From an uncultured Bacteroidota bacterium (lineage in GTDB: Bacteria > Bacteroidota > Bacteroidia > Flavobacteriales > BACL11): 64,000 bases of DNA. The stretch spans positions 205,566 to 269,565 of the forward strand of contig CACIJW010000001.1 of NCBI GenBank assembly GCA_902587125.1, written 5' to 3'. The first letter of the stretch is position 1, and the number at the start of each line of letters is the position of its first letter. Below the pieces are notes generated by a model that saw nothing but the letters and a program-made list of their open reading frames with translations, did not search any database and was not told the origin of the DNA. Positions 43,276 to 64,000 of this stretch are shown piece by piece. A program made the translations under genes and the position numbers.

Positions 43276-43283
43276 TATTTTTG
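43276..43283 (+). promoter_or_regulatory. -7 element TAttTTTG, 4 nt before ATG 43288
   Basis: TATTTTTG-ctgt-ATG. Confidence 0.6.
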
Positions 43284-43287
43284 CTGT

Positions 43288-49848: not shown

Positions 49849-51126
49849 ATGTTAAGACTTCTAACCTTATTTGTATTTGCAGTATGTATTGAAAGTCAAT
49901 CTCAATGCTTAAGCACAGATTCGACATATAGTACAAACATAAACTATACTAACGCCAAAGTAAATTGGGAAAAAGTAGATTCAGCAATCTTTTACAGAGT
50001 GAGATACAAAGATGTAAATGCAAGTACTTGGAGCTTTCAAAACAACATTGATTCTTCAGAAACTAATAAACTATTAATTGGACTAACACCCCAAACGCAT
50101 TATGTATGGCAAATAAAATCATATTGTGACAGTCTAGCAAATACATCTTCACAATGGTCTACAGCAGATAGTTTTTTTACTGAAAATATAACACTAGCAT
50201 ACCCTACAAGTATTTACGCTAACAACATAACTTTTTACAATGCACAAGTCAACTGGACTGGAGCAAATAATACAGACCGCTTCAAAATTAGATATAGAAT
50301 ATTCGGAACAACCACATGGAATTATCTTTCCAATATAGCAGGTTTTGTCTCAAGCACACAATTACCACAACTAAACCAACTAACCTTATATCAGTGGTCT
50401 ATAATGTCATATTATGACACTACAAATCTGCTTGGTTCCCTTTGGTCACCGATTGATACATTTACCACGGCTCAGTTTATTCCAGCACCTTTTTTACCTG
50501 TAATAAACACTTCAATTAGCTCAAATTTATGTGGAGAAAAAGTAGATTTATTTGTATCAATCAGTCAATCGGCTAATCAACCGGACATAGAGCAATCGGT
50601 TGTTACAACGAACGAAGGACAATTTGATATTGGAGGCTTATCAATTGGTGATACAGTTGGTTATGCAGATCTTTATTTATCAAATTTATCAGCTACAGCT
50701 ACATTAAAAGTGGGAATTACTTTTGGTCAAAACTATGCTTTTATAAACGCTGTAGATAGTTTAGGAGATTTGATTGGATTCTTTTCAATTGAAAATGAAA
50801 CAAACGGTGTTAAAATTACTTCCACATCTCCACCGGATGGCAATAATTACACAGGCGGGTTGACAACTGATATTACTTTTAATGAAATTTTTATAAATCC
50901 AAACTTTAATACGAACCTTATAATAACGACAGATATAGATTCTGAACTTCAAGACCAAGTTATGATTACGGATACAATACAAATAAATTGTCCGTCATCT
51001 ACTTATGAAATAATAGATGATAAAAAAACAATATGGTATTTTAATTTAGTAGGAAAAAATGCAAAAAGAAAAAAATACTCTTTTAGTTTTCTAAACAATC
51101 AAAAGAAAATAATAATCTATGAGTAA
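49849..51126 (+). CDS. Secreted protein with two fibronectin type III repeats and a possible T9SS-type C-terminal signal
   Basis: Signal peptide; two repeats (AKVNW..YRVRYK..W..LTPQTHYVWQI / AQVNW..FKIRYR..W..LNQLTLYQWSI); C-terminal FNLVGK..KKIII. Confidence 0.72.
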   Translation: MLRLLTLFVFAVCIESQSQCLSTDSTYSTNINYTNAKVNWEKVDSAIFYRVRYKDVNASTWSFQNNIDSSETNKLLIGLTPQTHYVWQIKSYCDSLANTSSQWSTADSFFTENITLAYPTSIYANNITFYNAQVNWTGANNTDRFKIRYRIFGTTTWNYLSNIAGFVSSTQLPQLNQLTLYQWSIMSYYDTTNLLGSLWSPIDTFTTAQFIPAPFLPVINTSISSNLCGEKVDLFVSISQSANQPDIEQSVVTTNEGQFDIGGLSIGDTVGYADLYLSNLSATATLKVGITFGQNYAFINAVDSLGDLIGFFSIENETNGVKITSTSPPDGNNYTGGLTTDITFNEIFINPNFNTNLIITTDIDSELQDQVMITDTIQINCPSSTYEIIDDKKTIWYFNLVGKNAKRKKYSFSFLNNQKKIIIYE

Positions 51127-52123
51127 AGTAATTGTTACAGGTGGTGCAGGTTATATAGGCTCACATACATGTGTAAGGCTTATCAAAATGGGGTATACTC
51201 CTGTAATTATAGACAACCTCTCTAATACAAGTATTGATAACATAAAAGGAGTTGAAAGCATTACAAATAAAAAATTAAATTATTACGAGATAGATTGCTG
51301 TTTTGCAAAAAAGCTTGATATGATTATAAAAAAAGAAAATGGTATAATAGGAGCTATTCATTTTGCAGCATACAAATCTGTTGAAGAATCAGTAAGATTG
51401 CCTGAAAAATATTTTAAAAATAATTTAAAATCTCTTGAGTCTTTGCTTGATGTTATGCAAAGTAATAATCTAAATAATTTGATTTTTTCTTCTTCATGTA
51501 CTGTTTATGGTAGCCCAGATAGTTTACCTGTAGATGAGAATGCTCCATTCAAAAAAGCTGAATCTCCATATGGAGAAACAAAACAGTTATGCGAAAAACT
51601 CATTGAAAAATCAACTCTATTTAGCGTTTGTCTCAGATATTTTAATCCAATCGGTTCGCACAAAAGCGGACTAATTGGTGACAGATCTGCAGATAAACCA
51701 GCCAATTTAATCCCAATAATTTGTGAAGTTGCCACTGGTAAAAGGGAGAAATTAGTAATTAACGGCAATGACTATAACACAAAAGATGGCACGTGTGTGA
51801 GAGACTATATTCATGTTGAGGATTTAGCTATAGCACATATAAATGCTCTTGAGTATTGCATAAAAAATAAAAACAAAAGCGTATTCAATATAGGAACAGG
51901 TCAAGGTTTATCAGTAACTGAAGCTGTTAGAATTTTTGAAGAGTGCAATAATGTAAAACTAAATATAGAGTTTGGACCAAGACGAAGCGGTGATGTATCT
52001 GAAATATATTCTGATACAAAAAAATCAAATGAGTTTCTTAACTGGAAAGCAAAAAGAACTGTTAAAGAAGCATTTCAAAGTGCTTACTTTTGGGAGAAAA
52101 GAAAAATATTAAGCAAATTGTAA
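51119..52123 (+). CDS. galE: UDP-glucose 4-epimerase
   Basis: VTGGAGYIGSHT, HFAAYKSVEES, SSSCTVYG, YGETK, LRYFNPIG, RDYIHVEDLA. Confidence 0.95.
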   Translation: MSKVIVTGGAGYIGSHTCVRLIKMGYTPVIIDNLSNTSIDNIKGVESITNKKLNYYEIDCCFAKKLDMIIKKENGIIGAIHFAAYKSVEESVRLPEKYFKNNLKSLESLLDVMQSNNLNNLIFSSSCTVYGSPDSLPVDENAPFKKAESPYGETKQLCEKLIEKSTLFSVCLRYFNPIGSHKSGLIGDRSADKPANLIPIICEVATGKREKLVINGNDYNTKDGTCVRDYIHVEDLAIAHINALEYCIKNKNKSVFNIGTGQGLSVTEAVRIFEECNNVKLNIEFGPRRSGDVSEIYSDTKKSNEFLNWKAKRTVKEAFQSAYFWEKRKILSKL

Positions 52124-52169
52124 CGCGACACAAATGAGGAAAACTTATTTTAAGTAATTTTAATTTATT

Positions 52170-52616
52170 TTGAAAATTAATTCATCGATTTTGCACCTTA
52201 ACAAGAGACACCTTACCAAAACAATAACATGGAGGTTTGTTGGAACTTTAGACACAATGCTGCTTTCGTGGTTTATCACTGGTCAATTTGCAACAGGACT
52301 AAAAATTGGAGTAGCTGAAACATTAACAAAAATGATATTGTATTATATGCATGAAAGAGCTTGGTTTACTTCAAGAAAATTTAAAAGTTCAAAAAGACAC
52401 ATCATAAAGACTTTTACATGGAGAGCTATTGGCACAATTGATACGATTTTATTAGGCTGGCTAATCTCAGGCGATCATCTTATGGGGCTAAAAATTGGAG
52501 CCTTTGAAGTAGTAACTAAGATGATATTATACTATTTGCATGAAAAATTATGGTATAAGCTTAATTTTGGATTAAAAACTAATAATCGTTTAAAACCAAT
52601 GTCGAAAAATGACTAA
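52170..52616 (+). CDS. Tandem DUF2061 membrane protein (two repeats; TTG start)
   Basis: RHLTKTITWR..DT..LYYMHERAW and RHIIKTFTWR..DT..LYYLHEKLW. Confidence 0.85.
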   Translation: MKINSSILHLNKRHLTKTITWRFVGTLDTMLLSWFITGQFATGLKIGVAETLTKMILYYMHERAWFTSRKFKSSKRHIIKTFTWRAIGTIDTILLGWLISGDHLMGLKIGAFEVVTKMILYYLHEKLWYKLNFGLKTNNRLKPMSKND

Positions 52617-52685
52617 TAATTTTACATAGTTTGATGACGACAATCAAAATGAATATAGAAATTAAAACAAAAACCATTATTAAAT

Positions 52686-53774
52686 ATGATTATAATTGAG
52701 TACTTATCGAGCATTTTAAAAAATCACACTTTACTAGTAATAGTGGCAGGTATAATAGGTTCTTTTCTAGTAACATCACAATCCCTTCCGTTCATAATTT
52801 ACTTTAGTAAAATTAAAAATCTTACGGCTAAAGTTGATGAAAGAAGTTCTCATTCAAGTAATATACCAAATATCGGAGGTCTTGGAATTATTGCGGGCAT
52901 ATACATAATAACCCTATCTTTATCTTTTTTCATTTTAGACTATAAAGACTCAAAATTAGTTATAGCTCTATTTATTTCACTATTGATATTACTGTTTATT
53001 GGATTTAAAGATGACATGCTAGGCTTAAGTGCTAGGGCTAAACTATTAACCGAAATTTGTACTGCAGCAGGATTTATTATTTTAACAGATTGCAGACTAG
53101 ATAATTTCTATGGGTTATTTGGCATTTATGAAATCAACTACTATGCTTCTTTATTTTTATCAATTTTCATATTTGTTGTTACTATAAATTCTTATAACTT
53201 AATAGATGGAATAGATGGGCTTGCTGGAGGTTTTGGTATAATTGCAATGATTGCATTTTTAATTTTAAGCATATCAGCTAACAATACAGTTGCGATTATA
53301 TTGTGCACTACTATTATTGGCAGTTTAGCTGGATTTTTGAGGTTTAATTTAAGAAGTGATAAAAGAAAAATTTTTATGGGAGATACTGGCTCTTTAGTTG
53401 TTGGCTTTTTGATTTCTGTTATTGTAATGATTATTTTAAGTTCAAAATATAACAGTAATCTTTATGCAAACAACACCCCGGTTTTAGTTCTCTCAATACT
53501 ATCATTTCCATATATCGACACGCTAAGGGTTATGGTTATCAGAAAAAGAATTGGTAAAAGGTTTTTTGAACCTGATAAAAATCATATTCACCACAAATTA
53601 ATAGGAAGGGGCAAAAGTCATAAAGTTTCTTCAATAATAATATTGTCCGTTTATTTGTCATCTATTATTTTTTGTATATCGTTAATAAAATTAGATATTA
53701 CAATTCATTTTTTTATTTCACTGATATACTCAGTACTGAGTTTATTAGCATTAGTATTAATTTTTAATAAATAA
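52686..53774 (+). CDS. MraY/WecA-family undecaprenyl-phosphate sugar-1-phosphate transferase
   Basis: RSSH..PNIGG, GFKDD, NSYNLIDGIDGL, IFMGDTGS, DTLRV..R, PDKNHIHHKL. Confidence 0.92.
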   Translation: MIIIEYLSSILKNHTLLVIVAGIIGSFLVTSQSLPFIIYFSKIKNLTAKVDERSSHSSNIPNIGGLGIIAGIYIITLSLSFFILDYKDSKLVIALFISLLILLFIGFKDDMLGLSARAKLLTEICTAAGFIILTDCRLDNFYGLFGIYEINYYASLFLSIFIFVVTINSYNLIDGIDGLAGGFGIIAMIAFLILSISANNTVAIILCTTIIGSLAGFLRFNLRSDKRKIFMGDTGSLVVGFLISVIVMIILSSKYNSNLYANNTPVLVLSILSFPYIDTLRVMVIRKRIGKRFFEPDKNHIHHKLIGRGKSHKVSSIIILSVYLSSIIFCISLIKLDITIHFFISLIYSVLSLLALVLIFNK

Positions 53775-54997
53775 TGACTGATTTAAAAATATGTGTGATT
53801 GGTCTTGGAAACGTTGGGCTAGATTTAGCAATAAATTTCAGTAAAAAATTTCATACAATTGGTTATGATATAAACAAGAGTTTGATTGAAAAAATCAAAA
53901 ATCAAAAATCAAAACACCTAAAGATTTCAAAAAATGGAGTCGGACTTGAGGTTTCGTGCAATCATAAACTGATTGTAAACTGCAATGTTTATATAATAAC
54001 CGTTCCATCTCCAGTGAATAAAAAAAAATTGCCTGATTTAGATAATATTATAGAACTAACTAAATTAATATCTAAATTTATAAGAATCGGAAATATTTTG
54101 ATTTATGAAAGCACTTTTTATCCTGGCCTAACAGAAGAAATATTTATACCCATAATTGAAAGAGAATCAAAATTAAAATTAAATAAAGATTTTTATGTTG
54201 GATATTCTCCTGAGAGAATCAATATCGGAAAAAACAAAAGATTATCAAATGAGATTGTAAAAATTACATCTGGATCAAATAAAAAAGCAAGCAAAATAAT
54301 AGATAGTCTTTACAAAAGGATAATAAAAGCTGGAACTTATAATGTAGAAAGCATAAGAATAGCAGAAGCTGTAAAAATTCTTGAAAACTGTCAGAGAGAT
54401 CTCAATATTGCATTCATGAACGAAATAACTAAATTTTTTAATAAACTAAATTTAGATACAAAAAAAGTTATTGAAGCCGCATCTACTAAATGGAACTTTT
54501 TTCAATTTTATCCAGGACTGGTAGGGGGAGATTGTATTGCTGTTGATCCATATTATTTAATTTTTTCTGCAAAAAAAATTAAACATGACTTGCCGTTAGT
54601 TAGATTGGCAAGAGAAACTAATGAAGGAATGGTAGATTATATTTATAAACATATTACAAAAGCGATATCTAACTTAAAAATATCTGCGCTGGCTTTTTTT
54701 GGAATTTCGTACAAGGAAAACTGTAAGCAGATAAACAATAGTATGTATTTAAGAATCATTCAAAAACTAGAGAAAAACTACAAGGTTGATATTTATGATC
54801 ATTTTGTTGAAAAAGCTCAACCAGAATCAAATTTTGTAAGGACAATGGAGTGTGCAAATAAAAAATATGATGTAATTATAATTGGCTCAAAGCATGATGA
54901 ATATAAAAAAATGAACTTCAAGAAATTCTTGAACAAATTTGGGACTATTATTGATATTCATGGCATTAGTATGTACCCAAAAAATAAAATTTTATAG
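53774..54997 (+). CDS. Nucleotide-sugar 6-dehydrogenase (UDP-HexNAc type, TviB/WbpO-like)
   Basis: GLGNVG, ESTFYPG, YSPERIN, AEAVKILENCQRDLNIAFMNE, PGLVGGDCIAVDPYYL. Confidence 0.88.
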   Translation: MTDLKICVIGLGNVGLDLAINFSKKFHTIGYDINKSLIEKIKNQKSKHLKISKNGVGLEVSCNHKLIVNCNVYIITVPSPVNKKKLPDLDNIIELTKLISKFIRIGNILIYESTFYPGLTEEIFIPIIERESKLKLNKDFYVGYSPERINIGKNKRLSNEIVKITSGSNKKASKIIDSLYKRIIKAGTYNVESIRIAEAVKILENCQRDLNIAFMNEITKFFNKLNLDTKKVIEAASTKWNFFQFYPGLVGGDCIAVDPYYLIFSAKKIKHDLPLVRLARETNEGMVDYIYKHITKAISNLKISALAFFGISYKENCKQINNSMYLRIIQKLEKNYKVDIYDHFVEKAQPESNFVRTMECANKKYDVIIIGSKHDEYKKMNFKKFLNKFGTIIDIHGISMYPKNKIL

Positions 54998-55022
54998 TCT
55001 TAATGATTAATTATAAAAAAGT

Positions 55023-55030
55023 TATTTTTG
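55023..55030 (+). promoter_or_regulatory. -7 element TAttTTTG upstream of cysC
   Basis: Exact motif in the 80-bp gap before cysC. Confidence 0.5.
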
Positions 55031-55077
55031 GGACAAATGATAAACAATATTTCTTGGTTGATTAACCGTTTAAAAAT

Positions 55078-55686
55078 ATGAGTTTAAATAAAAATCTCAA
55101 AAAACACAATTATAAAACAACCAAAATCCAACGCGAGACTTTGCATGGCCACAAGGCGTATTTAATTTGGTTTACAGGATTATCAGGCTCAGGTAAATCT
55201 ACTTTTGCAAATTTGCTTGAAATTGAATTGCATAAAAGAGGGTTATCAACATATATCTTAGACGGGGATAATATCCGTCTGGGAATTAATAAAGACTTAA
55301 GCTTCAATCATAAAGATAGAGCAGAAAACATAAGACGTATCGCTGAAATAAGTAATTTAATGATTGATGCAGGTGTTATAACCTTAGCTGCTTTTGTATC
55401 TCCATATATTAAAGATCGCAAAAAAGTTAAACAAATTGTTGGTGCAGAAAATTTTATTGAAATTTTTGTAAATACGCCGATAGAAGAATGTGAAAGAAGA
55501 GATGTAAAAGGCCTTTACAAAAAAGCAAGAGCAGGAAAAATTAAAAATATGACAGGTATATCTGCACCGTATGAGTCTCCGGAAAACCCAGACTTAGAAG
55601 TGTTTACAGAGCGTCAATCGATTGAAGAAAATTTAGAAGTTATTATCAATTTTATTAATAAAAAATTAAATAAAACTCATGAATAA
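55078..55686 (+). CDS. cysC: Adenylyl-sulfate (APS) kinase
   Basis: WFTGLSGSGKST, LDGDNIR, RAENIRR, RDVKGLYKKARAG, TGISAPYE.P. Confidence 0.96.
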   Translation: MSLNKNLKKHNYKTTKIQRETLHGHKAYLIWFTGLSGSGKSTFANLLEIELHKRGLSTYILDGDNIRLGINKDLSFNHKDRAENIRRIAEISNLMIDAGVITLAAFVSPYIKDRKKVKQIVGAENFIEIFVNTPIEECERRDVKGLYKKARAGKIKNMTGISAPYESPENPDLEVFTERQSIEENLEVIINFINKKLNKTHE

Positions 55687-56584
55687 TTATATAGTTAATC
55701 ATTTACGTGAGCTAGAATCAGAAGCAATTTTTGTGATTAGAGAAATATCCGCTCAATTTGAAAACCCTGTCTTACTTTTTTCTGGAGGTAAAGACTCTAT
55801 TTTACTAGTGCATTTAGCTAAAAAAGCATTTTATCCAGCTAAAATCCCATTCCCTCTAGTTCATATAGACACAGGAAATAATTTTCCCGAAACCATTTCT
55901 TTTAGAGATGATTTAGTTAATAAGTTAGGTGTTCGGTTAATTGTTGGTTCAGTTCAAGAATCAATAGATAAAGGACGCGCTAAAGAAGAAACAGGAAGCG
56001 ATGCATCACGTAATTCCTTACAGATTGTTACCTTGTTAGACACTTTAGATGAATATAAAGTTGATGCTGCATTAGGTGGTGCACGACGTGACGAAGAAAA
56101 AGCTAGAGCGAAAGAACGTTTTTTTTCACATCGAGATGAATTCGGACAATGGGATCCAAAAAATCAAAGACCTGAATTATGGAATCTTTTCAACGGACGT
56201 AAAAATTTTGGTGAACATTTTCGTGTTTTTCCTATTTCTAACTGGACAGAGATGGATGTTTGGGAATATATTAAATTAGAAAATATTGATTTACCCTCAC
56301 TTTATTTTTCACATCAGCGTGATTGTATAGTCCGAAATGGTGTAATTTTAGCTAATTCTAAATTTATCAAGTTAAAAGAAGGGGAAAAAGTAGTTAACAT
56401 GACTGTTCGTTTCAGAACTTGTGGGGATATGCCTATTACTGGAGCAATAGAATCTGAAGCAGATGATTTAACTAAGATTATTAAAGAAATTGCTACTACT
56501 AGAGTTACAGAACGTGGGGGTAGAGCAGATGATAAACGAGCTGAAACAGCTATGGAGGATCGTAAAAAACAAGGATACTTTTGA
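55679..56584 (+). CDS. cysD: Sulfate adenylyltransferase subunit 2
   Basis: LFSGGKDS, GGARRDEEKARAKERFFS, WDPKNQRPELW, RFRTCGD, MEDRKKQGYF. Confidence 0.97.
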   Translation: MNNYIVNHLRELESEAIFVIREISAQFENPVLLFSGGKDSILLVHLAKKAFYPAKIPFPLVHIDTGNNFPETISFRDDLVNKLGVRLIVGSVQESIDKGRAKEETGSDASRNSLQIVTLLDTLDEYKVDAALGGARRDEEKARAKERFFSHRDEFGQWDPKNQRPELWNLFNGRKNFGEHFRVFPISNWTEMDVWEYIKLENIDLPSLYFSHQRDCIVRNGVILANSKFIKLKEGEKVVNMTVRFRTCGDMPITGAIESEADDLTKIIKEIATTRVTERGGRADDKRAETAMEDRKKQGYF

Positions 56585-56594
56585 AAAAAAAAAT

Positions 56595-57851
56595 ATGCAA
56601 TATAAAGACAAAGAATTATTAAGATTTACTACTGCTGGAAGCGTAGATGATGGAAAAAGCACACTTATTGGTAGATTATTATACGATAGCAAATCTGTTT
56701 ATCAAGATCAATTAGACGCCGTTGAAGAATCTAGCAATACAAAAGGCTTTGATTATATAGACCTTTCATTATTAACAGACGGATTGAAATCTGAGCGTGA
56801 GCAGGGAATTACTATAGACGTAGCATACCGTTACTTTGCTACCCCAAAACGAAAATTTATTGTAGCAGACACTCCGGGGCATATCCAATATACAAGAAAC
56901 ATGGTTACTGGTGCTTCAACTGCCAATCTTGCAATTATCCTTATTGATGCTAGAAAAGGCATGCTAGAACAAACTCATCGACATTCTTTTATTGCTTCTT
57001 TATTACGTATTCCTCACGCAATTGTTTGTGTGAATAAAATGGATTTGGTAGACTATAGTGAAGAGGTTTTCAACAAGATTGTAGATGACTATAAAGCTTT
57101 TGCAACAAAATTAGAAATTATTGATATACAATTTGTGCCAATTTCTGCACTCAAAGGTGATAATGTAGTTAATAAATCTAAAAATATGAATTGGTACAAA
57201 GGAGGTTCATTAATGTACCGTCTAGAAAATGTTCATATCTCAAGTGATAAAAACCACATAGACTGTCGCTTCCCAATACAAGCTGTTATTCGTCCACAAA
57301 CTATAGAGCATCAAGACTTTAGAGGATTTGCAGGTCGTATTGATGGAGGTGTTTTTAAGACTGGTGATAGTGTGAAGATTTTACCCTCTGGGTTTATCTC
57401 CAAAATAAAAACTCTGGAACTCAACGGTGAACGCCTTTCAGAAGCATTTGCACCTATGTCGATTACAATGACACTAGAAGACGAAATTGATATTAGTCGC
57501 GGAGATATGATTGTAAGAGAAAATAATAGTCCTGAAGTAGGGCAAGACCTAGAAGTTTTAGTAACGTGGATGAATATTAATCCTTTACTAGCTCGCACGA
57601 AGGTAATTATAAAGCATACTACAAATGAGTGCGTTGCAATGGTGAAAGAATTAAGGTATAAAATTGATATCAATACTTTGCATAGGGTTGTAGACATTGA
57701 AAAACTGCAGATGAATGATATTGGTCGTATTTCTATACGAACATCTAAACCTTTATTTTTTGATACTTACAAGAAAAATCGTCAAACAGGCAGCATAATT
57801 ATTATTGATGAACAAACGAATGAAACTATTGGCGCAGGAATGTTTATATAA
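56595..57851 (+). CDS. cysN: Sulfate adenylyltransferase subunit 1 (probable ATG at 56595; no fused CysC domain)
   Basis: TAGSVDDGKSTLIGRLL, EREQGITIDVAYRYF, DTPGH, NKMD, PISALKGDNV. Confidence 0.97.
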   Translation: MQYKDKELLRFTTAGSVDDGKSTLIGRLLYDSKSVYQDQLDAVEESSNTKGFDYIDLSLLTDGLKSEREQGITIDVAYRYFATPKRKFIVADTPGHIQYTRNMVTGASTANLAIILIDARKGMLEQTHRHSFIASLLRIPHAIVCVNKMDLVDYSEEVFNKIVDDYKAFATKLEIIDIQFVPISALKGDNVVNKSKNMNWYKGGSLMYRLENVHISSDKNHIDCRFPIQAVIRPQTIEHQDFRGFAGRIDGGVFKTGDSVKILPSGFISKIKTLELNGERLSEAFAPMSITMTLEDEIDISRGDMIVRENNSPEVGQDLEVLVTWMNINPLLARTKVIIKHTTNECVAMVKELRYKIDINTLHRVVDIEKLQMNDIGRISIRTSKPLFFDTYKKNRQTGSIIIIDEQTNETIGAGMFI

Positions 57852-57875
57852 TAATTGAAAATTGGTTTTTATTAA

Positions 57876-58928
57876 ATGAATATGAGGAAAATTCTTATTA
57901 CAGGAGGTGCAGGATTTATTGGCTCTCACGTTGTTAGGCTATTTGTAAACAAATATCCAAATTATCAAATTTTTAATTTAGATGCATTAACCTATGCCGG
58001 TAATTTAGAGAATCTCATAGACATAGAATCTAACGAAAATTATACCTTTTTACGTGGTGATATTACAGATGAAGTCTATATCAATTCAATTTTTAAAAAA
58101 TATTGTTTTGATGATGTAATACATCTAGCAGCTGAATCTCACGTGGATAGATCAATTAGTGACCCCTTAGCTTTTGCAAAAACAAATGTTCTTGGAACAA
58201 TGATTTTACTAAATAACTTCAAAGAGCTACACAAAAATAATTGGAAAGGCAAACGTTTTTATCATATTAGCACAGACGAGGTGTACGGGTCATTAGGTGA
58301 GAATGGGCTATTTAAAGAGACAACCTCTTATGATCCTAACTCTCCATATTCAGCGTCAAAAGCAAGTTCAGATCATTTTGTAAGAGCCTATGGTGAAACT
58401 TATGGATTACCTTTCATTATTACAAATTGTTCCAATAATTATGGAAAACAACAATTTCCAGAAAAATTAATTCCTCTATTTATCAATAATGTATTAAATA
58501 ATAAACCACTACCTGTCTATGGAGATGGTAATTACACTAGAGACTGGCTTTATGTAATTGACCATGCAAAAGCCATAGACATGGTATTTCACAGGGGCAA
58601 TATCTATCAAACTTATAATATTGGCGGATTTAATGAATGGAAAAATATTGATCTTGTAAAGTTGCTATGCAAACAAATGGATAAAAAATTAGGTCGTTCA
58701 GTCGGAAGTAGTGAAAAACTTATCACATTTGTGAAAGATAGACCTGGTCACGATTTACGATATGCAATTGACGCCTCAAAAATTAATCAGGAATTGGGAT
58801 GGAGCCCAACAGTTACTTTTGAACAGGGGCTATCCGAAACAATAGATTGGTATATTTCTAATGAACATTGGTTGAAAAATATTACATCAGGAAATTACCA
58901 AAACTATTACATGAAAAAATATAAGTGA
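57876..58928 (+). CDS. rfbB: dTDP-glucose 4,6-dehydratase
   Basis: TGGAGFIGSH, HLAAESHVDRSI, STDEVYG, YSASK, NCSNNYG, DRPGHDLRYAID. Confidence 0.96.
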   Translation: MNMRKILITGGAGFIGSHVVRLFVNKYPNYQIFNLDALTYAGNLENLIDIESNENYTFLRGDITDEVYINSIFKKYCFDDVIHLAAESHVDRSISDPLAFAKTNVLGTMILLNNFKELHKNNWKGKRFYHISTDEVYGSLGENGLFKETTSYDPNSPYSASKASSDHFVRAYGETYGLPFIITNCSNNYGKQQFPEKLIPLFINNVLNNKPLPVYGDGNYTRDWLYVIDHAKAIDMVFHRGNIYQTYNIGGFNEWKNIDLVKLLCKQMDKKLGRSVGSSEKLITFVKDRPGHDLRYAIDASKINQELGWSPTVTFEQGLSETIDWYISNEHWLKNITSGNYQNYYMKKYK

Positions 58929-59054
58929 AATTCGTAGAAATTATATAGCTTATTTAAAAAAAGCAGATCTTAAATTTTATACAACAATATAATTTTATAA
59001 ATAATCCTTACGCTTAAATAAATTAAAAGAATAATTTTGTTCTTATTAAATAAA

Positions 59055-60449
59055 ATGAAGATAAAATCAATATGTTGTATCGGAGCAGGTTATGTTGGAG
59101 GTCCAACCATGGCTGTAATTGCTTTAAAATGCCCACACATAAAAGTAACTGTAGTAGATATTAATGAAGAGAGGATTAAAGCATGGAATGACAAAAATCT
59201 TAGTAATTTACCAATATATGAACCCGGGTTAGCTGAAGTTGTTAGTTTAGCAAGAAATAGGAATTTATTTTTTTCTACAAAAATAGATAAAGCTATAGAG
59301 GAATCAGAAATGATTTTTATATCTGTGAATACACCAACAAAAACTTATGGGATTGGGAAAGGACAAGCGGCAGACTTAAAATACGTTGAACTATGCGCTC
59401 GTAATATAGCTAGAGTTGCAAAAGATGACAAAATTGTTGTGGAAAAATCTACACTACCTGTCAGAACTGCAGAAGCTGTCCAAACAATACTGGATTCAAC
59501 TGGTAATGGTATAAATTTCGAGGTTTTATCAAACCCTGAATTTTTAGCTGAAGGAACAGCTGTTCAAGATTTATTTAAATCCGATAGAGTATTGATTGGT
59601 GGATCTCAGTCAAAAAGTGGTAAAAAAGCAATTGATCAACTAGTTGATATTTATGCAAATTGGATACCAAGAGAAAAAATTTACACTACAAATGTATGGT
59701 CTTCTGAGCTATCTAAACTTGTTGCAAATGCTTTCTTAGCACAAAGAATAAGCTCCATAAACAGCATATCAGCTTTATGTGAAAAAACTGAAGCAGATGT
59801 AGATGAGGTAGCTACTGCTATCGGAATGGATACAAGAATTGGTGATAAATTTCTAAAATCTTCAGTAGGCTTTGGTGGAAGCTGTTTTCAAAAAGACATT
59901 CTAAACTTAGTTTATATTTCAAAATCGCTAGGTCTAGATGAAGTTTCTGAATACTGGAATCAGGTTATTAAAATAAACAATTATCAAAAAACTAGATTTG
60001 CAAAAAAAATCATAAAATCTCTTTTTGACACAGTTTCAGATAAAAAAATTACTTTTTTTGGCTGGTCATTTAAAAAAGACACAAACGATACTCGAGAGTC
60101 TGCTGCTATATATGTGGCTGATATACTTATTGAGAATGGAGCTAAGGTTTTTGTATATGACCCTAAAGTTTCTAGAGAACAAATGCTCACAGATTTAGAT
60201 TATTTAAATACAAGAACAAGTAATGAAAATAGAGAATCTTTAATTACAGAAAAAAACCCGTACGATGCGGCCAAAGATTCTCATGCGATTGCAATTATTA
60301 CTGAATGGGATGAGTTTATATCATTAGATTGGAAAAAAATTCATAAAAAAGTTATGAAGCCTGCAAAAATATTTGACGGAAGAAATATATTAGACAGAAA
60401 AGAAATAAAAAAAATAGGGTTTGAGCTTTATTCTATAGGAAAGTACTAG
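59055..60449 (+). CDS. ugd: UDP-glucose 6-dehydrogenase (probable ATG at 59055)
   Basis: [59 protein letters not shown]. Confidence 0.95.
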
Positions 60450-60460
60450 TCTTAATTATT

Positions 60461-61414
60461 TTGATAACTAAAAGTACAAAAATATATATTGCCGGTCACA
60501 AAGGAATGGTAGGCAGTTCGATTTGGAATTTGTTACAAAAAAATGGTTTTAAAAATTTAGTTGGAAAAAGTTCATTTGAACTTGATTTAAGAAACCAAAA
60601 AGAAGTCCAAGACTTCTTTAAAATTGAAAGCCCCGAAATTGTAATATGTGCCGCCGCAAAAGTCGGGGGAATATTAGCTAACGTAAATAACCCTTTTAGA
60701 ATTATTTCAGATAATCTTGATATCCAAAATAATTTAATTAAATCTTCTCTTGAACATGACGTAAAAAAGTTTATTTTTTTAGGAAGTTCATGTATATATC
60801 CAAAAAACTGTTCTCAACCAATAAAAGAGTCTTATTTGTTAACAAATACTTTAGAGCAAACAAATCAGTATTATTCCGTATCAAAAATTGCAGGAATAAA
60901 ATTATGTGAATCTATAAGAAATCAATACAAGAAGGACTTTGTTTGCTTGATGCCATGCAATCTTTATGGCCCTAGGGACAATTTTGATCTAAAAAACTCT
61001 CATGTACTTCCAGCTCTAATCAGAAGGTTTTATGAGGGGAAAAAGAATAAAGCTTCAACAATATGTTTGTGGGGTACTGGTACACCATTAAGAGAATTTT
61101 TATATGTTGAAGATTTAGCAAGGGCTATTTTTTTTATGATGAACAAAAAAAAATCTGACTTCATATACAATGTTGGCTCTGGCATTGAAATTACAATTCG
61201 AGACTTAGCCTTAAAAATTCAAAATATAATTGGATACGAAGGAGAAATTATTTGGGATCATTCTAAACCAAATGGTGTTCACAGAAAGCTTTTAAATACA
61301 CAAAAGTTATCATCCTTAGGATGGAAAAGTACGTTTGATTTAGATGAAGGAATAAATAATACTATCTCTTGGTTTAACAAAAACTATAAAAATCTTAAAA
61401 AAGTGACATTTTAA
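60461..61414 (+). CDS. fcl: GDP-L-fucose synthase (TTG start)
   Basis: AGHKGMVGS, AAKVGGI, LGSSCIYPK, YSVSKIAG, MPCNLYGP.DNF, SHVLPALI, WGTGTPLREF. Confidence 0.95.
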   Translation: MITKSTKIYIAGHKGMVGSSIWNLLQKNGFKNLVGKSSFELDLRNQKEVQDFFKIESPEIVICAAAKVGGILANVNNPFRIISDNLDIQNNLIKSSLEHDVKKFIFLGSSCIYPKNCSQPIKESYLLTNTLEQTNQYYSVSKIAGIKLCESIRNQYKKDFVCLMPCNLYGPRDNFDLKNSHVLPALIRRFYEGKKNKASTICLWGTGTPLREFLYVEDLARAIFFMMNKKKSDFIYNVGSGIEITIRDLALKIQNIIGYEGEIIWDHSKPNGVHRKLLNTQKLSSLGWKSTFDLDEGINNTISWFNKNYKNLKKVTF

Positions 61415-61439
61415 CTAAAATTTAGTTGTTTTGTATCTC

Positions 61440-62522
61440 ATGAAAAAAATTGCTTTAATTACTGGTATTACAGGCCAAGATGGCTCATATTTAGCTGAGT
61501 TGCTTTTAAATAAAGGTTACGTTGTACATGGTGTCAAAAGGAGGTCATCAATGTTCAATACGCAAAGAATTGATCACATATTTGAAAATCTTAAACTACA
61601 AAACAAAAGATTTTTTTTGCATTTCGGAGACTTAATTGATAGTTCTAATATAATTAGGCTTATCTCAGAGATTAGACCAAATGAAATTTACAACTTAGCA
61701 GCTATGAGTCACGTAAAAGTATCATTTGAAATTCCGGAATATGTCGCTAATACAGATGCTATTGGAACATTAAGAATTTTAGAAGCAATAAGAATTTTAG
61801 GTTTAGAAAAAAAAACAAGAATTTACCAAGCTTCAACATCAGAGCTTTATGGTAACAACATGCAAATTCCTTTAAACGAGGAGTCACAATTTTATCCAAA
61901 CTCACCTTATGCTGTAGCAAAACTATATTCATATTGGATAATGATTAACTACAGAAAAGCATATAATATATTTGCTGCTAACGGAATATTATTTAATCAT
62001 GAAAGCCCCAGAAGAGGGGAAACGTTTGTAACAAGAAAAATAACTATTGGAATTGCTAAAATTTTATATGGATTGAATGACAAACTTTATCTTGGCAATC
62101 TAGATGCAGTAAGAGATTGGGGACATGCAAAAGATTACGTTGATGCTATGTGGAGAATACTACAACATAAAAATCCGCAAGATTGGGTTATTGCAACAGG
62201 TTTGTCTTACTCTATAAGAGAATTTTTAATTGCATGTTTAAAAAAAGTTGGCTTAATACTAGGCTTTAGAGGCAAGGGGTTGAATGAAATTGGATATGTT
62301 ATTTCTTCAAAAAATGAAAATTACAAACATTTAGTTGGAAAAGAAATCATCAATGTGAGTGAGAAATATTTTAGACCATCTGATGTCAATAAGCTTGTGG
62401 GTGATGCATCAAAGGCTAGACAAAAACTAGATTGGAAGCCAAAAAGTTCTTTTGATGATTTAGTAGAAGAAATGATAACTCACGATATGCAAATGATAGA
62501 AAAGAAATATTTTAAAAAATGA
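61440..62522 (+). CDS. gmd: GDP-mannose 4,6-dehydratase (probable ATG at 61440)
   Basis: TGITGQDGSYL, NLAAMSHV..SF, QASTSELYG, SPYAVAKLY, NHESPRRGETFVTRKI, RDWGHAKDYV. Confidence 0.97.
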   Translation: MKKIALITGITGQDGSYLAELLLNKGYVVHGVKRRSSMFNTQRIDHIFENLKLQNKRFFLHFGDLIDSSNIIRLISEIRPNEIYNLAAMSHVKVSFEIPEYVANTDAIGTLRILEAIRILGLEKKTRIYQASTSELYGNNMQIPLNEESQFYPNSPYAVAKLYSYWIMINYRKAYNIFAANGILFNHESPRRGETFVTRKITIGIAKILYGLNDKLYLGNLDAVRDWGHAKDYVDAMWRILQHKNPQDWVIATGLSYSIREFLIACLKKVGLILGFRGKGLNEIGYVISSKNENYKHLVGKEIINVSEKYFRPSDVNKLVGDASKARQKLDWKPKSSFDDLVEEMITHDMQMIEKKYFKK

Positions 62523-63532
62523 AAGTTTTAATAACTGGTATTGCAGGTTTTATTGGCTTTCACACTGCAAAAAAACTATTATCTCAAAACTATAAAGTTT
62601 ATGGGGTCGATTCTATCAACGATTATTATAGTACAAAGCTGAAATATGACAGATTGTCTGAACTAGGCTTAGAAAAAGAGTGTGCAGATAAGTTTTATGT
62701 TGAGTGTAAAAGTGAAAAATTTAAAAATTTGATTTTTCAAAGAGCTGACTTGACAAATTCTGAAAAAGTTAGAATGATCTTTAAGGCTCATAAGTTCAAT
62801 ATTGTATGTCATCTGGCAGCTCAGCCAGGTGTAAGATATAGCTTAGTAAATCCTCATGCTTATATTAACTCTAATATCAATGGTTTTTTAAATATTCTTG
62901 AAGGATGTAGGAACAATAAAATTAGTCATCTGATTTATGCATCTAGTTCAAGTGTTTATGGAAATAATAAAAAATTGCCATTTAAAACAGAAGATAAAGT
63001 GGATAATCCTGTGAGTCTATACGCAGCCACAAAAAAAAGTAATGAATTGATGGCATATACCTACAGTCATCTTTATGGCTTTAAGACAACAGGGTTACGG
63101 TTTTTTACTGTTTATGGACCCTGGGGAAGACCTGACATGGCAATCTATTTATTTGCAGATGCAATTAAACAAGAAAAACCAATTAAAGTTTACAATAATG
63201 GCAACTTGTTCAGGGACTTTACATACATTGACGATATAGTGCAGGGAATATCAAATATTGTTTCTTATAAACCAAAACAATATTTGAGCAAAATTTATAA
63301 TATTGGAAATAGTAAGCCAGTTAACCTTATGGATTTCATAACTTTACTTGAAAGATTCTTAAACACCAAAGCCAAGAAAGAAATGTGTGAAATGCAGCCA
63401 GGTGATGTTTACAAGACCTGGGCAGATGTTTCTGAATTAGAAAAAGACTATAATTACAGTCCTAAAACAGACCTAGAATATGGCATAAAGTCATTTGTTG
63501 ATTGGTTTTCTTTATATAACATTCAAAAATAA
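62519..63532 (+). CDS. UDP-glucuronate 4-epimerase-like NAD-dependent epimerase
   Basis: TGIAGFIG, HLAAQPGVRYSL.NP, ASSSSVYG, SLYAATKK, LRFFTVYGPWGRPDMA, RDFTYIDD, QPGDV. Confidence 0.9.
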   Translation: MKVLITGIAGFIGFHTAKKLLSQNYKVYGVDSINDYYSTKLKYDRLSELGLEKECADKFYVECKSEKFKNLIFQRADLTNSEKVRMIFKAHKFNIVCHLAAQPGVRYSLVNPHAYINSNINGFLNILEGCRNNKISHLIYASSSSVYGNNKKLPFKTEDKVDNPVSLYAATKKSNELMAYTYSHLYGFKTTGLRFFTVYGPWGRPDMAIYLFADAIKQEKPIKVYNNGNLFRDFTYIDDIVQGISNIVSYKPKQYLSKIYNIGNSKPVNLMDFITLLERFLNTKAKKEMCEMQPGDVYKTWADVSELEKDYNYSPKTDLEYGIKSFVDWFSLYNIQK

Positions 63533-63538
63533 TTTTAA

Positions 63539-64000
63539 ATGAAACGTCCTGACTTTCTTATTTGCGGGGCTCAGAAGGGTGGTACAACTTCATTATTGAA
63601 TTATGCCAAAAAAATTAATGCTATTTTATTTTCCAAACTTTTTCCATTTTACATATTCACAATCTTAAGCTCAGTAAGCGAGTTATTATTTACTAGATAT
63701 TTCATTATCAATGTTGGGGTTGAAGGGCTTGGTATGTATGCTCTGATGTTGAGTATATCATTAATTGCATTTAATGTAATTGAAACAAGAACCAGCGAAA
63801 GTGTTGTATATTTTCTAGCACAAAAAAATTCAAAAAATCTAGTTTTAACGACGTCTCTTTTTTTTGATATATTATCATTAATTCTGATTACTTGCTTGAT
63901 GACAATCTTTTTCCCATTTATTAAAAACAACTTACAGGGGATGTCCTCGGTTCCAAATACAGTTTTTTTGTTGGGTATATTAATAAATACACCTTTAATG
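63539..64000 (+). CDS. Open-ended ORF: sulfotransferase PAPS-binding N-terminus fused to a Wzx-flippase-like membrane protein (runs off the window's right edge)
   Basis: Not in the ORF track. 154 stop-free codons from ATG 63539: MKRPDFLICGAQKGGTTSLLNY then AKKINAILFSKLFPFYIFTILSSVSELLFTRYFIINVGVEGLGMYALMLSISL and further TM segments. Confidence 0.75.
   Translation, partial: MKRPDFLICGAQKGGTTSLLNYAKKINAILFSKLFPFYIFTILSSVSELLFTRYFIINVGVEGLGMYALMLSISLIAFNVIETRTSESVVYFLAQKNSKNLVLTTSLFFDILSLILITCLMTIFFPFIKNNLQGMSSVPNTVFLLGILINTPLM

What the first reader, a model, noticed from the sequence alone, without database searches (positions are those of the whole stretch)
51119..64000. Polysaccharide locus equipped for a sulfated, fucose- and uronate-containing glycan
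Seen: one plus-strand run with galE, a WecA-like initiator, two nucleotide-sugar dehydrogenases, cysC-cysD-cysN, rfbB, fcl-gmd, a uronate 4-epimerase and a sulfotransferase motif at the window end. No cysH/cysI/cysJ are present here. Known: CysDN+CysC make PAPS, the donor for sulfotransferases; Gmd/Fcl make GDP-fucose; Ugd and the epimerase make UDP-GlcA/GalA. Inference: PAPS is dedicated to glycan sulfation, giving a fucoidan- or GAG-like bacterial surface polymer. Flavobacteria are mostly studied as degraders rather than producers of such polymers.
Basis: partly seen in the sequence, partly recalled or inferred. Interest (0 to 1): 0.62.

Follow-up and report, generated by a model that had tools for sequence, protein, structure and literature searches.

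The report
Sulfated surface polysaccharide gene cluster
A small-genome marine flavobacterium keeps the genes for the sulfate donor PAPS inside a capsule-type sugar-polymer gene cluster and has no genes for reducing sulfate, so it very probably makes sulfated surface polysaccharides; the design is already published for Vibrio and Cobetia capsules, but here it is a trait of a whole bacterial family.

Summary
The locus runs past the window: about 22.7 kb and 21 co-directional genes. The part outside the window holds Wzx, an intact sulfotransferase, Wzy, four glycosyltransferases, Wza and Wzc. The "sulfotransferase motif" at the window's end is a real remnant of about 24 residues fused to the Wzx flippase, not a gene.

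The genome (1.54 Mb, 95.85% complete) has no cysH and no sulfite reductase. It has one cysC-cysD-cysN set, one cysQ and 14 sulfotransferase ORFs, 13 of them intact. Eight lie in three Wzx/Wzy polysaccharide loci.

The pattern holds across the family:
- cysH in 0 of 41 genomes
- sulfite reductase in 0 of 24
- sulfotransferases in 24 of 24
- cysC within 15 kb of sulfotransferases in at least 17 of 20

So PAPS is used for sulfation, most likely of lipid-linked repeat units. "Fucoidan- or GAG-like" is not supported; this is a repeat-unit heteropolysaccharide with one sulfotransferase.

Clusters joining PAPS genes and sulfotransferases are published for Vibrio KMM 8419 and Cobetia KMM 1449. The scan has also found this theme before on other flavobacterial DNA (e1-4248981, e1-2402094). 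It is a new member of a known kind. No chemistry exists yet.

The parts
51119..52123 (+). galE, UDP-glucose (or UDP-HexNAc) 4-epimerase; first gene of the conserved 5' module
   Evidence: TIGR01179, 360.1 bits against a cut-off of 262.3. 80-84% identical and syntenic in the same-genus genomes G003 and G005.
52170..52616 (+). DUF2061 protein: two repeats, predicted four-helix protein, function unknown; a likely accessory of the PAPS module
   Evidence: PF09834, 141 bits. In 21 of 21 cases among 80 cysC loci the DUF2061 ORF lies directly upstream of cysC on the same strand. Model pLDDT is 85 with four helices, and there is no PDB fold match (best E = 2).
52686..53774 (+). WecA/MraY-family polyprenyl-phosphate HexNAc-1-phosphate transferase; starts the repeat unit on undecaprenyl phosphate
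   Evidence: PF00953, 121.8 bits. TIGR02380 WecA scores 134 bits, below its cut-off of 326, so this is family level only.
53774..54997 (+). Nucleotide-sugar 6-dehydrogenase, TviB/WbpO-like (a UDP-HexNAc to UDP-HexNAc-uronate type)
   Evidence: TIGR03026, 321.7 bits against 189.8. The TviB model scores 331.5, below its cut-off of 592. Closest solved structures are Cap5O and an archaeal UDP-ManNAc dehydrogenase at 148 bits. The substrate is not resolved.
55078..55686 (+). cysC, APS kinase (APS + ATP gives PAPS); the only copy in the genome
   Evidence: TIGR00455, 240.6 bits against 138.7. It is the only APS_kinase hit over the cut-off in G000.
55679..56584 (+). cysD, small subunit of sulfate adenylyltransferase
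   Evidence: TIGR02039, 425.8 bits against 396.6. It is the only PAPS_reduct-family hit over the cut-off in the genome.
56595..57851 (+). cysN, GTPase subunit of sulfate adenylyltransferase; not fused to cysC
   Evidence: TIGR02034, 551.3 bits against 336.1. The ATG at 56595 gives 418 aa, as in relatives with 420 aa. The longest ORF starts at 56490 with TTG inside cysD.
57876..58928 (+). rfbB, dTDP-glucose 4,6-dehydratase
   Evidence: TIGR01181, 464.2 bits against 365.1. An RmlA-type nucleotidyltransferase (best NTP_transferase hit, not individually confirmed) and rmlC lie elsewhere, at C1:153362 and C13:17592.
59037..60449 (+). ugd, UDP-glucose 6-dehydrogenase (makes UDP-GlcA)
   Evidence: TIGR03026, 336.7 bits against 189.8. 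TuaD scores 324.5, below its cut-off of 700.
60461..61414 (+). fcl, GDP-L-fucose synthase
   Evidence: NF047922, E 2e-123, 411.7 bits, full length, below the equivalog cut-off of 500.
61431..62522 (+). gmd, GDP-mannose 4,6-dehydratase
   Evidence: TIGR01472, 537.2 bits against 415.
62519..63532 (+). SDR epimerase, probably a UDP-glucuronate (or UDP-HexNAc-uronate) 4-epimerase; last gene of the conserved 5' module
   Evidence: PF01370, 179.6 bits. The best PDB hit is 5u4q (369 bits, deposited under the name dTDP-glucose 4,6-dehydratase), then B. cereus UDP-GlcA 4-epimerase 6zl6/6zla (170 bits) and WbgU/WbpP.
63539..63610 (+). Remnant of a sulfotransferase gene (5'-phosphosulfate-binding loop, residues 1-24), fused in frame to wzx
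   Evidence: MKRPDFLICGAQKGGTTSLLNY matches the N-termini of this genome's sulfotransferases at C1:97382 and C1:98263 (E 1e-4 and 6e-5). The orthologous Wzx in L119 aligns only from residue 25 on.
63539..64000 (+). N-terminal part of a probable Wzx flippase (434 aa, runs to window-equivalent 64843) and the start of the low-GC variable 3' module. The locus continues beyond the window.
   Evidence: Wzx: PF13440 at E 4e-4, 20.1 bits, below the cut-off of 23; at least 9 hydrophobic spans; 50% identical to the L119 Wzx.

Genes beyond the window, as L001 coordinate + 62000 = window-equivalent coordinate:
- sulfotransferase 64875-65762
- Wzy 65759-66838
- GT4 66835-67926
- GT4 67919-68995
- GT4 68982-70001
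- GT26 (WecG/TagA) 69998-70666
- Wza 70700-71470
- Wzc 71471-73840
- then PorZ at 74161, which is outside the locus

GC of wzx to GT26 is 24-26%, against 27-35% in the 5' module.

Best explanation
This is a Wzx/Wzy-dependent, Wza/Wzc-exported capsule or exopolysaccharide locus. It spans window 51119 to window-equivalent 73840 and also houses the genome's only PAPS-making genes.

Proposed mechanism:
1. Sulfate enters the cell. The importer is not identified. One DASS symporter is a candidate, and the role of DUF2061 is unknown.
2. CysD/CysN make APS and CysC makes PAPS. This follows from gene identity.
3. The WecA-family enzyme starts a repeat unit on undecaprenyl phosphate. Three GT4 enzymes and one GT26 enzyme extend it. 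The donors are the nucleotide sugars the locus can make: UDP-Gal, UDP-GlcA/GalA, a UDP-HexNAc-uronate, GDP-L-fucose and dTDP-rhamnose.
4. The soluble 295-aa sulfotransferase encoded between wzx and wzy moves sulfate from PAPS to the lipid-linked repeat unit in the cytoplasm. CysQ, encoded in a second sulfotransferase-rich locus, removes the PAP by-product. This step is inferred.
5. Wzx flips the unit, Wzy polymerises it, and Wzc/Wza export it.

The genome has no cysH and no sulfite reductase, so activated sulfate has no assimilatory outlet. It serves the 13 intact sulfotransferases.

The locus has a conserved 5' module (sugar-nucleotide and PAPS genes) and a low-GC, strain-variable 3' module (wzx, sulfotransferase, wzy, glycosyltransferases). 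This is the layout of a serotype-determining surface-glycan locus.
For: - Gene identities.
- The locus sulfotransferase is intact. It passes PF13469 (39 bits against 27) and PF00685 (31 against 22). Its homologues keep an invariant G-x-x-R-S-G-T/S-T loop, R-H-P...S, E-P, H-E and R-N-S. The model (pLDDT 77, pTM 0.82) has PAPS-dependent sulfotransferases as all 50 top PDB fold matches. It has no hydrophobic span.
- Genome-wide: no cysH, because the weak PF01507 hits are GuaA and TilS. No NIR_SIR. One cysC. CysQ passes its curated cut-off, 246 bits against 229. There are 12 + 2 sulfotransferase ORFs, and 8 of them lie in three Wzx/Wzy loci.
- Family-wide: NIR_SIR in 0 of 24 genomes, including a one-contig genome at 99% and two draft genomes at 100% estimated completeness. 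cysH in 0 of 41. APS kinase in 20 of 24. Sulfotransferases in 24 of 24, with 2-12 hits each. cysC lies within 15 kb of sulfotransferases in at least 17 of 20.
- Operon-like layout: 21 co-directional genes with gaps of -14 to +108 nt, taking cysN from ATG 56595.
- The same 3' module (wzx, sulfotransferases, wzy, three GT4, GT26, wza, wzc) is conserved at 41-59% amino-acid identity in another MAG, L119.
- Published hallmark: PAPS genes plus sulfotransferases in a capsule cluster go with a chemically proven sulfated capsule (PMC11641403 and PMC11766843).
Against: - There is no chemical, transcript or enzymatic evidence.
- The acceptor of the sulfotransferase is inferred only from gene position.
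- The flippase scores below Pfam's cut-off and carries a foreign 24-residue N-terminus, which could impair it.
- No recognised sulfate transporter (SulP) was found. Only a DASS symporter of unknown substrate is present.
- The cys genes sit in the conserved module, and relatives keep them next to quite different 3' modules. Their position therefore reflects a genome-wide PAPS supply, not a dedication to this one polymer.
- The genome is a 36-contig draft at 95.85% completeness.
Confidence: 0.77

Rival explanations
1. The cysC-cysD-cysN genes are the ordinary assimilatory set. cysH and sulfite reductase exist but lie in the unassembled 4% of the genome, and the position of the cys genes in a glycan locus is incidental.
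For: The genome is a 36-contig draft at 95.85% completeness. Two cysK-like genes are present, so sulfide can be used.
Against: NIR_SIR was found in 0 of 24 family genomes and cysH in 0 of 41. These include a one-contig genome at 99% and draft genomes at 100% estimated completeness. The same searches ring in 10-11 of 14 control genomes. APS kinase is not needed in the APS-reductase route of assimilation, yet it is kept. cysQ and 13 sulfotransferases are present.
Confidence: 0.02
2. The locus polymer itself is not sulfated. The sulfotransferase between wzx and wzy acts on something else (a lipid, a small molecule, a protein or another glycan), and the PAPS genes here mainly serve the sulfotransferase-rich loci elsewhere (C8 and C1:88-101 kb) and the lone sulfotransferases.
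For: The cys genes belong to the conserved 5' module whatever 3' module follows. Five sulfotransferases lie outside glycan loci, next to unrelated genes. The best fold matches are protein-tyrosine and polyketide sulfotransferases, at TM of only about 0.5.
Against: The sulfotransferase overlaps wzy by 4 nt and lies 31 nt after wzx. It travels with the same wzx/wzy/glycosyltransferase set in L119 at 57% identity. It shares the low GC of the variable module. In published clusters, sulfotransferases in this position go with sulfated capsules.
Confidence: 0.12
3. The locus is decaying. A deletion removed a sulfotransferase gene and fused its start to wzx, leaving a non-functional flippase and a silent 3' module.
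For: There is a sulfotransferase-remnant/Wzx fusion. No in-frame ATG lies between residue 1 and residue 66 of the ORF, so no native wzx start is evident. Another sulfotransferase in the genome (C2:70561-71400) is broken by a TAA. Wzx is below the Pfam cut-off.
Against: All 21 ORFs are open and of full length. Only the first 24 residues of Wzx are replaced, and the first hydrophobic span (residues 28-46) and the rest align with the L119 orthologue. The fused ORF keeps a start codon 6 nt after the epimerase stop, so translation is provided for.
Confidence: 0.08

Closest known systems
Sulfated capsular polysaccharide gene cluster of Vibrio sp. KMM 8419 (PMC11641403)
   Same: A surface-polysaccharide cluster that contains cysC, cysN, cysD and sulfotransferases beside sugar-nucleotide (dTDP-Rha) and glycosyltransferase genes. 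The authors call this combination a hallmark of sulfated polysaccharide synthesis.
   Different: There the product is chemically proven, export is by the kps ABC transporter, and the cys genes are second copies beside an assimilatory set. The host is a Gammaproteobacterium with a cluster of about 80 genes. Here there is Wzx/Wzy/Wza/Wzc export, the sole cys set in a genome with no sulfate reduction, a Flavobacteriales host, 21 genes and no chemistry.
Sulfated capsule cluster of Cobetia marina KMM 1449 (PMC11766843)
   Same: cysN/C, cysD, cysQ and a sulfotransferase within the capsule cluster. CysQ is assigned to PAP removal.
   Different: That cluster has a fused cysNC, a sulfate permease in the cluster, and kps ABC export with a Kdo-lipid primer. 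Here cysC is separate, cysQ sits in another locus about 160 kb away, and no sulfate permease is in the locus.
Bacteroides thetaiotaomicron PAPS pathway feeding the BtSULT sulfotransferase (PMC13449962)
   Same: A Bacteroidota genome that activates sulfate to PAPS for sulfotransferases.
   Different: Its characterised acceptors are steroids and other small molecules, not a Wzy-built polysaccharide.
Hypervariable surface-glycan regions with sulfotransferases in SAR11/Pelagibacter (bioRxiv 10.64898/2026.04.03.716430)
   Same: A streamlined marine bacterium without assimilatory sulfate reduction. Its low-GC, strain-variable polysaccharide island contains sulfotransferases, GDP-mannose dehydratases and epimerases.
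   Different: That paper reports gene content only. I did not check whether Pelagibacter carries cysC/cysDN. Here the PAPS genes are part of the locus and conserved across the family.
Group 1-type (Wzx/Wzy, Wza-Wzc) capsule loci such as E. coli K30 (from my own knowledge)
   Same: An initiating phosphoglycosyltransferase, a flippase, a polymerase, the outer-membrane exporter Wza and the tyrosine-kinase co-polymerase Wzc, with a conserved block and a serotype-specific variable block.
   Different: Those loci have no Wzb phosphatase counterpart identified here, and they carry no PAPS genes or sulfotransferase.

Membership tests
Wzx/Wzy-dependent capsule/EPS locus with Wza-Wzc export | Initiating polyprenyl-phosphate sugar-phosphate transferase | tested here: met
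   PF00953, 121.8 bits against 27.
Wzx/Wzy-dependent capsule/EPS locus with Wza-Wzc export | Wzx (MOP-family) flippase | tested here: inconclusive
   PF13440 scores 20.1 bits, below the cut-off of 23, but covers 263 of 293 model positions. There are at least 9 hydrophobic spans. BLAST against the genome's two clear Wzx proteins is insignificant to marginal.
Wzx/Wzy-dependent capsule/EPS locus with Wza-Wzc export | Wzy polymerase | tested here: met
   PF04932, 43.6 bits against 31.7.
Wzx/Wzy-dependent capsule/EPS locus with Wza-Wzc export | Wza outer-membrane exporter and Wzc chain-length/tyrosine-kinase protein | tested here: met
   Poly_export and SLBB domains. Wzz (24.6 bits, just under its cut-off of 25.5), GNVR and AAA_31 domains in a 789-aa protein.
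PAPS-dependent sulfotransferase (Sulfotransfer_1/_3) | 5'-phosphosulfate-binding loop and 3'-phosphate-binding motif | tested here: met
   GIHRSGTT (residues 11-18) and RHP...S (138-146) are invariant in 9 homologues. Both Pfam models pass their cut-offs.
PAPS-dependent sulfotransferase (Sulfotransfer_1/_3) | Sulfotransferase fold | tested here: met
   Model pLDDT 77, pTM 0.82. All 50 top Foldseek PDB hits are PAPS sulfotransferases (best E 1.5e-7, TM about 0.5).
PAPS-dependent sulfotransferase (Sulfotransfer_1/_3) | PAPS-dependent transfer to a defined acceptor | not testable with these tools
   Needs an enzyme assay.
Sulfated-polysaccharide cluster with its own PAPS genes (Vibrio KMM 8419 / Cobetia KMM 1449 type) | cysD, cysN and cysC inside the polysaccharide cluster together with at least one sulfotransferase | tested here: met
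   definition from PMC11641403.
Sulfated-polysaccharide cluster with its own PAPS genes (Vibrio KMM 8419 / Cobetia KMM 1449 type) | kps-type ABC-transporter export | tested here: not met
   The locus has Wzx, Wzy, Wza and Wzc and no kps genes.
Sulfated-polysaccharide cluster with its own PAPS genes (Vibrio KMM 8419 / Cobetia KMM 1449 type) | Sulfate ester shown chemically on the polymer | not testable with these tools
   The organism is uncultured and no chemistry exists.
Assimilatory sulfate reduction operon (cysDNC-cysH-cysIJ) | PAPS/APS reductase CysH | tested here: not met
   PF01507 over the cut-off only for cysD; the weak hits are GuaA and TilS. TIGR00434 in 0 of 41 family genomes.
Assimilatory sulfate reduction operon (cysDNC-cysH-cysIJ) | Sulfite reductase (CysI/Sir) | tested here: not met
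   PF01077: none in G000, and 0 of 24 in the family. The controls ring in 11 of 14.
Fucoidan-like or glycosaminoglycan-like polymer | Synthase-type polymerisation of a disaccharide or fucan backbone with dense sulfation (several sulfotransferases) | tested here: not met
   The locus holds three GT4 enzymes, one GT26, Wzy and one sulfotransferase. No processive dual-domain synthase was seen among its ORFs.

The most novel reading that the evidence does not exclude
A whole family of abundant, small-genome marine Flavobacteriales has given up sulfate assimilation but kept sulfate activation solely to decorate hypervariable surface polysaccharides. In this genome that means 13 intact sulfotransferases and three Wzx/Wzy loci, about 3.5% of 1.54 Mb. 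That would make these planktonic bacteria a regular and so far uncounted source of sulfated glycans in seawater, and sulfation a main axis of their surface (serotype or phage-receptor) diversity. The conserved DUF2061 protein, always directly upstream of cysC in Bacteroidota, would be an undescribed component of the PAPS module.
Probability: 0.4. Interest if true: 0.65.

Novelty: new member of a known kind. Interest (0 to 1): 0.42.

Why it matters
Marine flavobacteria are studied mainly as consumers of algal sulfated polysaccharides. This locus and its two sister loci argue that streamlined planktonic members also make sulfated glycans, and spend a sizeable share of a very small genome on it.

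Three consequences follow.
1. In this family, 'cysDNC present' should not be read as 'assimilatory sulfate reduction' in metabolic reconstructions of MAGs. The organisms are predicted to need reduced sulfur, as SAR11 does.
2. Bacterial sulfated glycans may add to the marine pool of sulfated polysaccharide that is usually credited to algae.
3. The work points to cultured, testable carriers of the same PAPS module. The best is Xanthomarina gelatinilytica AK20, which also lacks sulfite reductase.

The design itself is not new.

Tried and rejected
- Promoter and terminator scans of the locus gave no more sites than shuffled sequence. The sigma-70 consensus is also not the Bacteroidota promoter type, so they are uninformative.
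- The search for related loci with the locus sulfotransferase found no relative in genome contigs. The enzyme is rare: 11 homologues in the 5.8-billion-protein search.
- A PDB sequence search with the sulfotransferase gave only CurM ST at E 0.45. The fold search was needed.
- SulP sulfate permease: none. The one DASS symporter cannot be assigned to sulfate.
- The DUF2061 fold search found nothing significant.
- Pairwise BLAST of the flippase against the genome's other two Wzx proteins was insignificant to marginal (E 2.8 and 0.007 on short segments).
- I considered and rejected that the remnant-Wzx ORF is a true bifunctional sulfotransferase-flippase. Only the first 24 residues are sulfotransferase-like. 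The 3'-phosphate-binding motif and the rest of the domain are missing.
- I could not name the GTDB family. The closest named records are a MAG labelled Aurantibacter sp. (79% CysC identity) and an uncultured Flavobacteriales bacterium.

Full report
OBSERVATION

The window is G000:C1:205566-269565 of a 1.54-Mb draft genome with 36 contigs, 30% GC and an estimated completeness of 95.85%. From 51119 to the window's end there is one uninterrupted + strand run of ORFs.
- galE
- a WecA/MraY-family initiator
- a TviB/WbpO-like nucleotide-sugar dehydrogenase
- cysC, cysD and cysN, all three above their curated cut-offs
- rfbB, ugd, fcl and gmd
- an SDR epimerase, whose closest solved enzyme with an informative name is the Bacillus cereus UDP-glucuronate 4-epimerase

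cysN most likely starts at ATG 56595, not at the upstream TTG of the longest ORF.

THE WINDOW'S END

The ORF starting at 63539 begins MKRPDFLICGAQKGGTTSLLNY. This is a sulfotransferase 5'-phosphosulfate-binding loop. Residues 4-39 match the N-termini of this genome's own sulfotransferases (E 6e-5 to 1e-4). From residue 25 on, the protein is a 434-aa multi-span membrane protein. It matches the Wzx family weakly (PF13440, 20.1 bits, cut-off 23). It is 50% identical to the flippase of a related locus, L119, whose alignment starts only at residue 25.

I agree on the fusion, but see no evidence for a second catalytic function.

THE REST OF THE LOCUS

The rest lies outside the window (L001). After wzx come, in order:
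- a 295-aa sulfotransferase (window-equivalent 64875-65762)
- Wzy
- three GT4 glycosyltransferases
- a GT26 (WecG/TagA) glycosyltransferase
- Wza
- Wzc (ends at 73840)
- then the unrelated T9SS gene porZ

The locus is therefore about 22.7 kb and 21 co-directional genes. Gaps run from -14 to +108 nt, taking cysN from ATG 56595.

The sulfotransferase is intact. It passes both Pfam sulfotransferase models. The PAPS-binding elements are invariant among its few homologues. Its model (pLDDT 77, pTM 0.82) finds only PAPS-dependent sulfotransferases among the 50 best PDB fold matches. It has no hydrophobic segment, so it should act in the cytoplasm.

THE REFUTATION TEST

- The only PAPS_reduct-family hit above the cut-off is cysD. 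The two weak hits are GuaA and TilS.
- There is no NIR_SIR sulfite reductase.
- There is one APS kinase.
- A CysQ PAP phosphatase scores above its curated cut-off (246 bits against 229).
- There are 12 Sulfotransfer_1/_3 ORFs, one of them broken by a TAA, plus 2 Sulfotransfer_2 ORFs. That makes 14, of which 13 are intact.

Eight of the sulfotransferases lie in three complete Wzx/Wzy loci:
- This locus has one.
- A locus on C8:30045-49673 has three. It also carries wza, wzc, a NeuB-like synthase, a CMP-Kdn synthetase/Kdn-9-P phosphatase fusion, wzx, wzy, four GT4 enzymes, a deacetylase, a carbamoyltransferase and a GT2.
- A locus on C1:88821-101284 has four. It carries cysQ, wzx, three sulfotransferases, wzy, an epimerase, a fourth sulfotransferase, an acetyltransferase, a GT2, a GT4 and gmhA.

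Together these loci take 54.8 kb, or 3.55% of the genome. A small GT2-sulfotransferase-sulfotransferase-GT2 group lies on C2. Four more sulfotransferases stand alone next to unrelated genes.

RELATIVES

The draft state of the genome is not the explanation. Among sampled genomes of the same family (1.0-2.1 Mb):
- Sulfite reductase was found in 0 of 24, including a one-contig genome at 99% and two draft genomes at 100% estimated completeness.
- cysH was found in 0 of 41.
- APS kinase was found in 20 of 24. The four without it are 62-84% complete.
- Sulfotransferases were found in 24 of 24, with 2-12 hits each.
- In at least 17 of the 20 genomes with cysC, a listed sulfotransferase lies on the same contig within 15 kb of it (coordinates).

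In other families of the order, 6 of 16 genomes have any sulfotransferase, and 3 of 16 have sulfite reductase.

In two same-genus genomes the 5' part is syntenic and 62-96% identical at protein level. Its order is mnmG, methyltransferase, FN3 protein, galE, (DUF2061), cysC-cysD-cysN, rfbB, wecA, dehydrogenase, ugd, fcl/gmd/epimerase, with small rearrangements. Everything after the epimerase is unrelated.

The variable part of our locus has 24-26% GC, against 27-35% for the conserved part. It recurs as a block in another MAG (L119) at 41-59% amino-acid identity: wzx, an extra sulfotransferase, the matching sulfotransferase, wzy, three GT4 enzymes, GT26, wza and wzc. This is the familiar build of a serotype-type surface-glycan locus: conserved precursor genes plus an exchangeable assembly cassette.

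A WIDER MODULE

Among 80 cysC loci from named genomes, many Bacteroidota carry cysQ-DUF2061-cysC-cysD-cysN, or the variant with cysQ last. These include Flavobacteriaceae, Crocinitomicaceae, Cyclobacteriaceae, Reichenbachiella, Ekhidna and Chitinophagaceae. The module sits among rfbB, TviB-like dehydrogenase, epimerase, ugd and wza/wzc genes, often with a sulfotransferase. None of them has a sulfite-reductase gene nearby.

All 21 DUF2061 ORFs in these loci lie directly upstream of cysC on the same strand. DUF2061 folds confidently as a four-helix protein but matches no solved structure.

Cultured carriers exist:
- Xanthomarina gelatinilytica AK20 and Flavobacteriaceae bacterium LYZ1037 have the module and no sulfite reductase.
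- Saonia flava, Reichenbachiella agariperforans and Hyunsoonleella aestuarii have the module and a sulfite reductase elsewhere.

MECHANISM

Shown by gene identity:
- PAPS synthesis (CysDN, CysC) and PAP removal (CysQ)
- supply of UDP-Gal, UDP-GlcA, GDP-L-fucose and a dTDP-6-deoxyhexose intermediate; an RmlA-type nucleotidyltransferase (the best NTP_transferase hit, not individually confirmed) and rmlC are elsewhere
- Wzx/Wzy assembly and Wza/Wzc export

Inferred:
- The epimerase makes UDP-GalA or a HexNAc-uronate epimer.
- The sulfotransferase acts on the undecaprenyl-diphosphate-linked repeat unit before flipping.
- The repeat has about five sugars (initiator plus four glycosyltransferases) and carries about one sulfate.
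- The product is a capsule or EPS.

Not resolved:
- how sulfate enters the cell; there is no SulP and one DASS symporter of unknown substrate
- what DUF2061 does
- what the five sulfotransferases outside the three Wzx/Wzy loci sulfate

Two cysK-like genes score just below the curated cut-off. With no route from sulfate to sulfide, this predicts dependence on reduced sulfur.

COMPARISON WITH WHAT IS KNOWN

PAPS genes plus sulfotransferases inside a capsule cluster are published, with chemically proven sulfated capsules, for Vibrio sp. KMM 8419 and Cobetia marina KMM 1449. The Vibrio paper calls the combination a hallmark of sulfated polysaccharide synthesis. Those clusters differ in three ways: they use kps ABC export, they are gammaproteobacterial, and in Vibrio the cys genes are second copies.

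PAPS made only for sulfotransferases is also known in Bacteroidota, in B. thetaiotaomicron. The control rows show the same gene pattern there.

Sulfotransferases in low-GC hypervariable glycan islands of a streamlined marine bacterium that lacks sulfate assimilation are reported for Pelagibacter.

I found no paper on this arrangement in Flavobacteriales. However, the library searched is limited to open-access papers.

The scan itself has reported the same theme on other flavobacterial genomes (e1-4248981, e1-2402094).

VERDICT

It overreaches on 'fucoidan- or GAG-like', and it mistook a gene remnant for the sulfotransferase. This is a sound, well-supported new member of a known kind. Its added value is the family-wide, genome-level picture and the pointer to cultured strains for testing. 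Nothing here has been tested chemically.

Noticed in passing
window 63539-63610: The first 24 residues of the Wzx ORF are the phosphosulfate-binding loop of a sulfotransferase, fused in frame. The orthologous Wzx in L119 lacks it. This is probably the scar of a deletion that removed a sulfotransferase gene and the native wzx start.
   Followed up: yes
window 52170-52616, and L032-L102: DUF2061 (148 aa, two repeats, confident four-helix model, no fold match) lies directly upstream of cysC on the same strand in 21 of 21 Bacteroidota loci where it occurs. In this genome wecA and a dehydrogenase have been inserted between them. It is a candidate unknown component of the PAPS module.
   Followed up: partly
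G000:C8:30045-49673 (L024/L025): A second Wzx/Wzy/Wza/Wzc locus with three sulfotransferases (two Sulfotransfer_1, one Sulfotransfer_2), a NeuB-like synthase, a CMP-sugar synthetase fused to a Kdn-9-phosphate phosphatase, a polysaccharide deacetylase and a carbamoyltransferase. It predicts a sulfated, nonulosonic-acid-containing polymer.
   Followed up: partly
G000:C1:88821-101284 (L026), about 105-117 kb upstream of the window's start on the same contig: A third Wzx/Wzy locus, headed by cysQ (above the curated cut-off), with four sulfotransferases, an acetyltransferase, GT2, GT4 and gmhA, and no wza/wzc. It may be an O-antigen-type locus. In most other genera of the family the cysC genes sit next to such a run of sulfotransferases.
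   Followed up: partly
G000:C2:69637-72882 (L028): A small group GT2, sulfotransferase, Sulfotransfer_2 sulfotransferase, GT2. The first sulfotransferase is interrupted by one TAA and is probably a pseudogene.
   Followed up: partly
G000:C10:37344-38252 and C2:14332-15198: Two cysK/cysM-like genes (307 and 300 bits, just under the cut-off of 344) in a genome with no route from sulfate to sulfide. This predicts a SAR11-like need for reduced sulfur.
   Followed up: no
G000:C21:7193-9424, C30:1564-4064, C2:134059-134871: Five sulfatase-family genes (two pairs on C21 and C30 and one on C2). The organism can probably also remove sulfate esters. The substrates are unknown.
   Followed up: no
window 49849-51126: A 425-aa protein with a signal-peptide-like start and one FN3 domain. 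Its end overlaps the galE start by 8 nt. It is 82-94% identical and in the same place in the two same-genus genomes. Whether it belongs to the polysaccharide locus is unknown.
   Followed up: no
window 43273-46545: A 1090-aa ORF upstream of ybeY and mnmG with no NCBIfam or Pfam match. A long ORF occupies the same place in G003 and G005.
   Followed up: no
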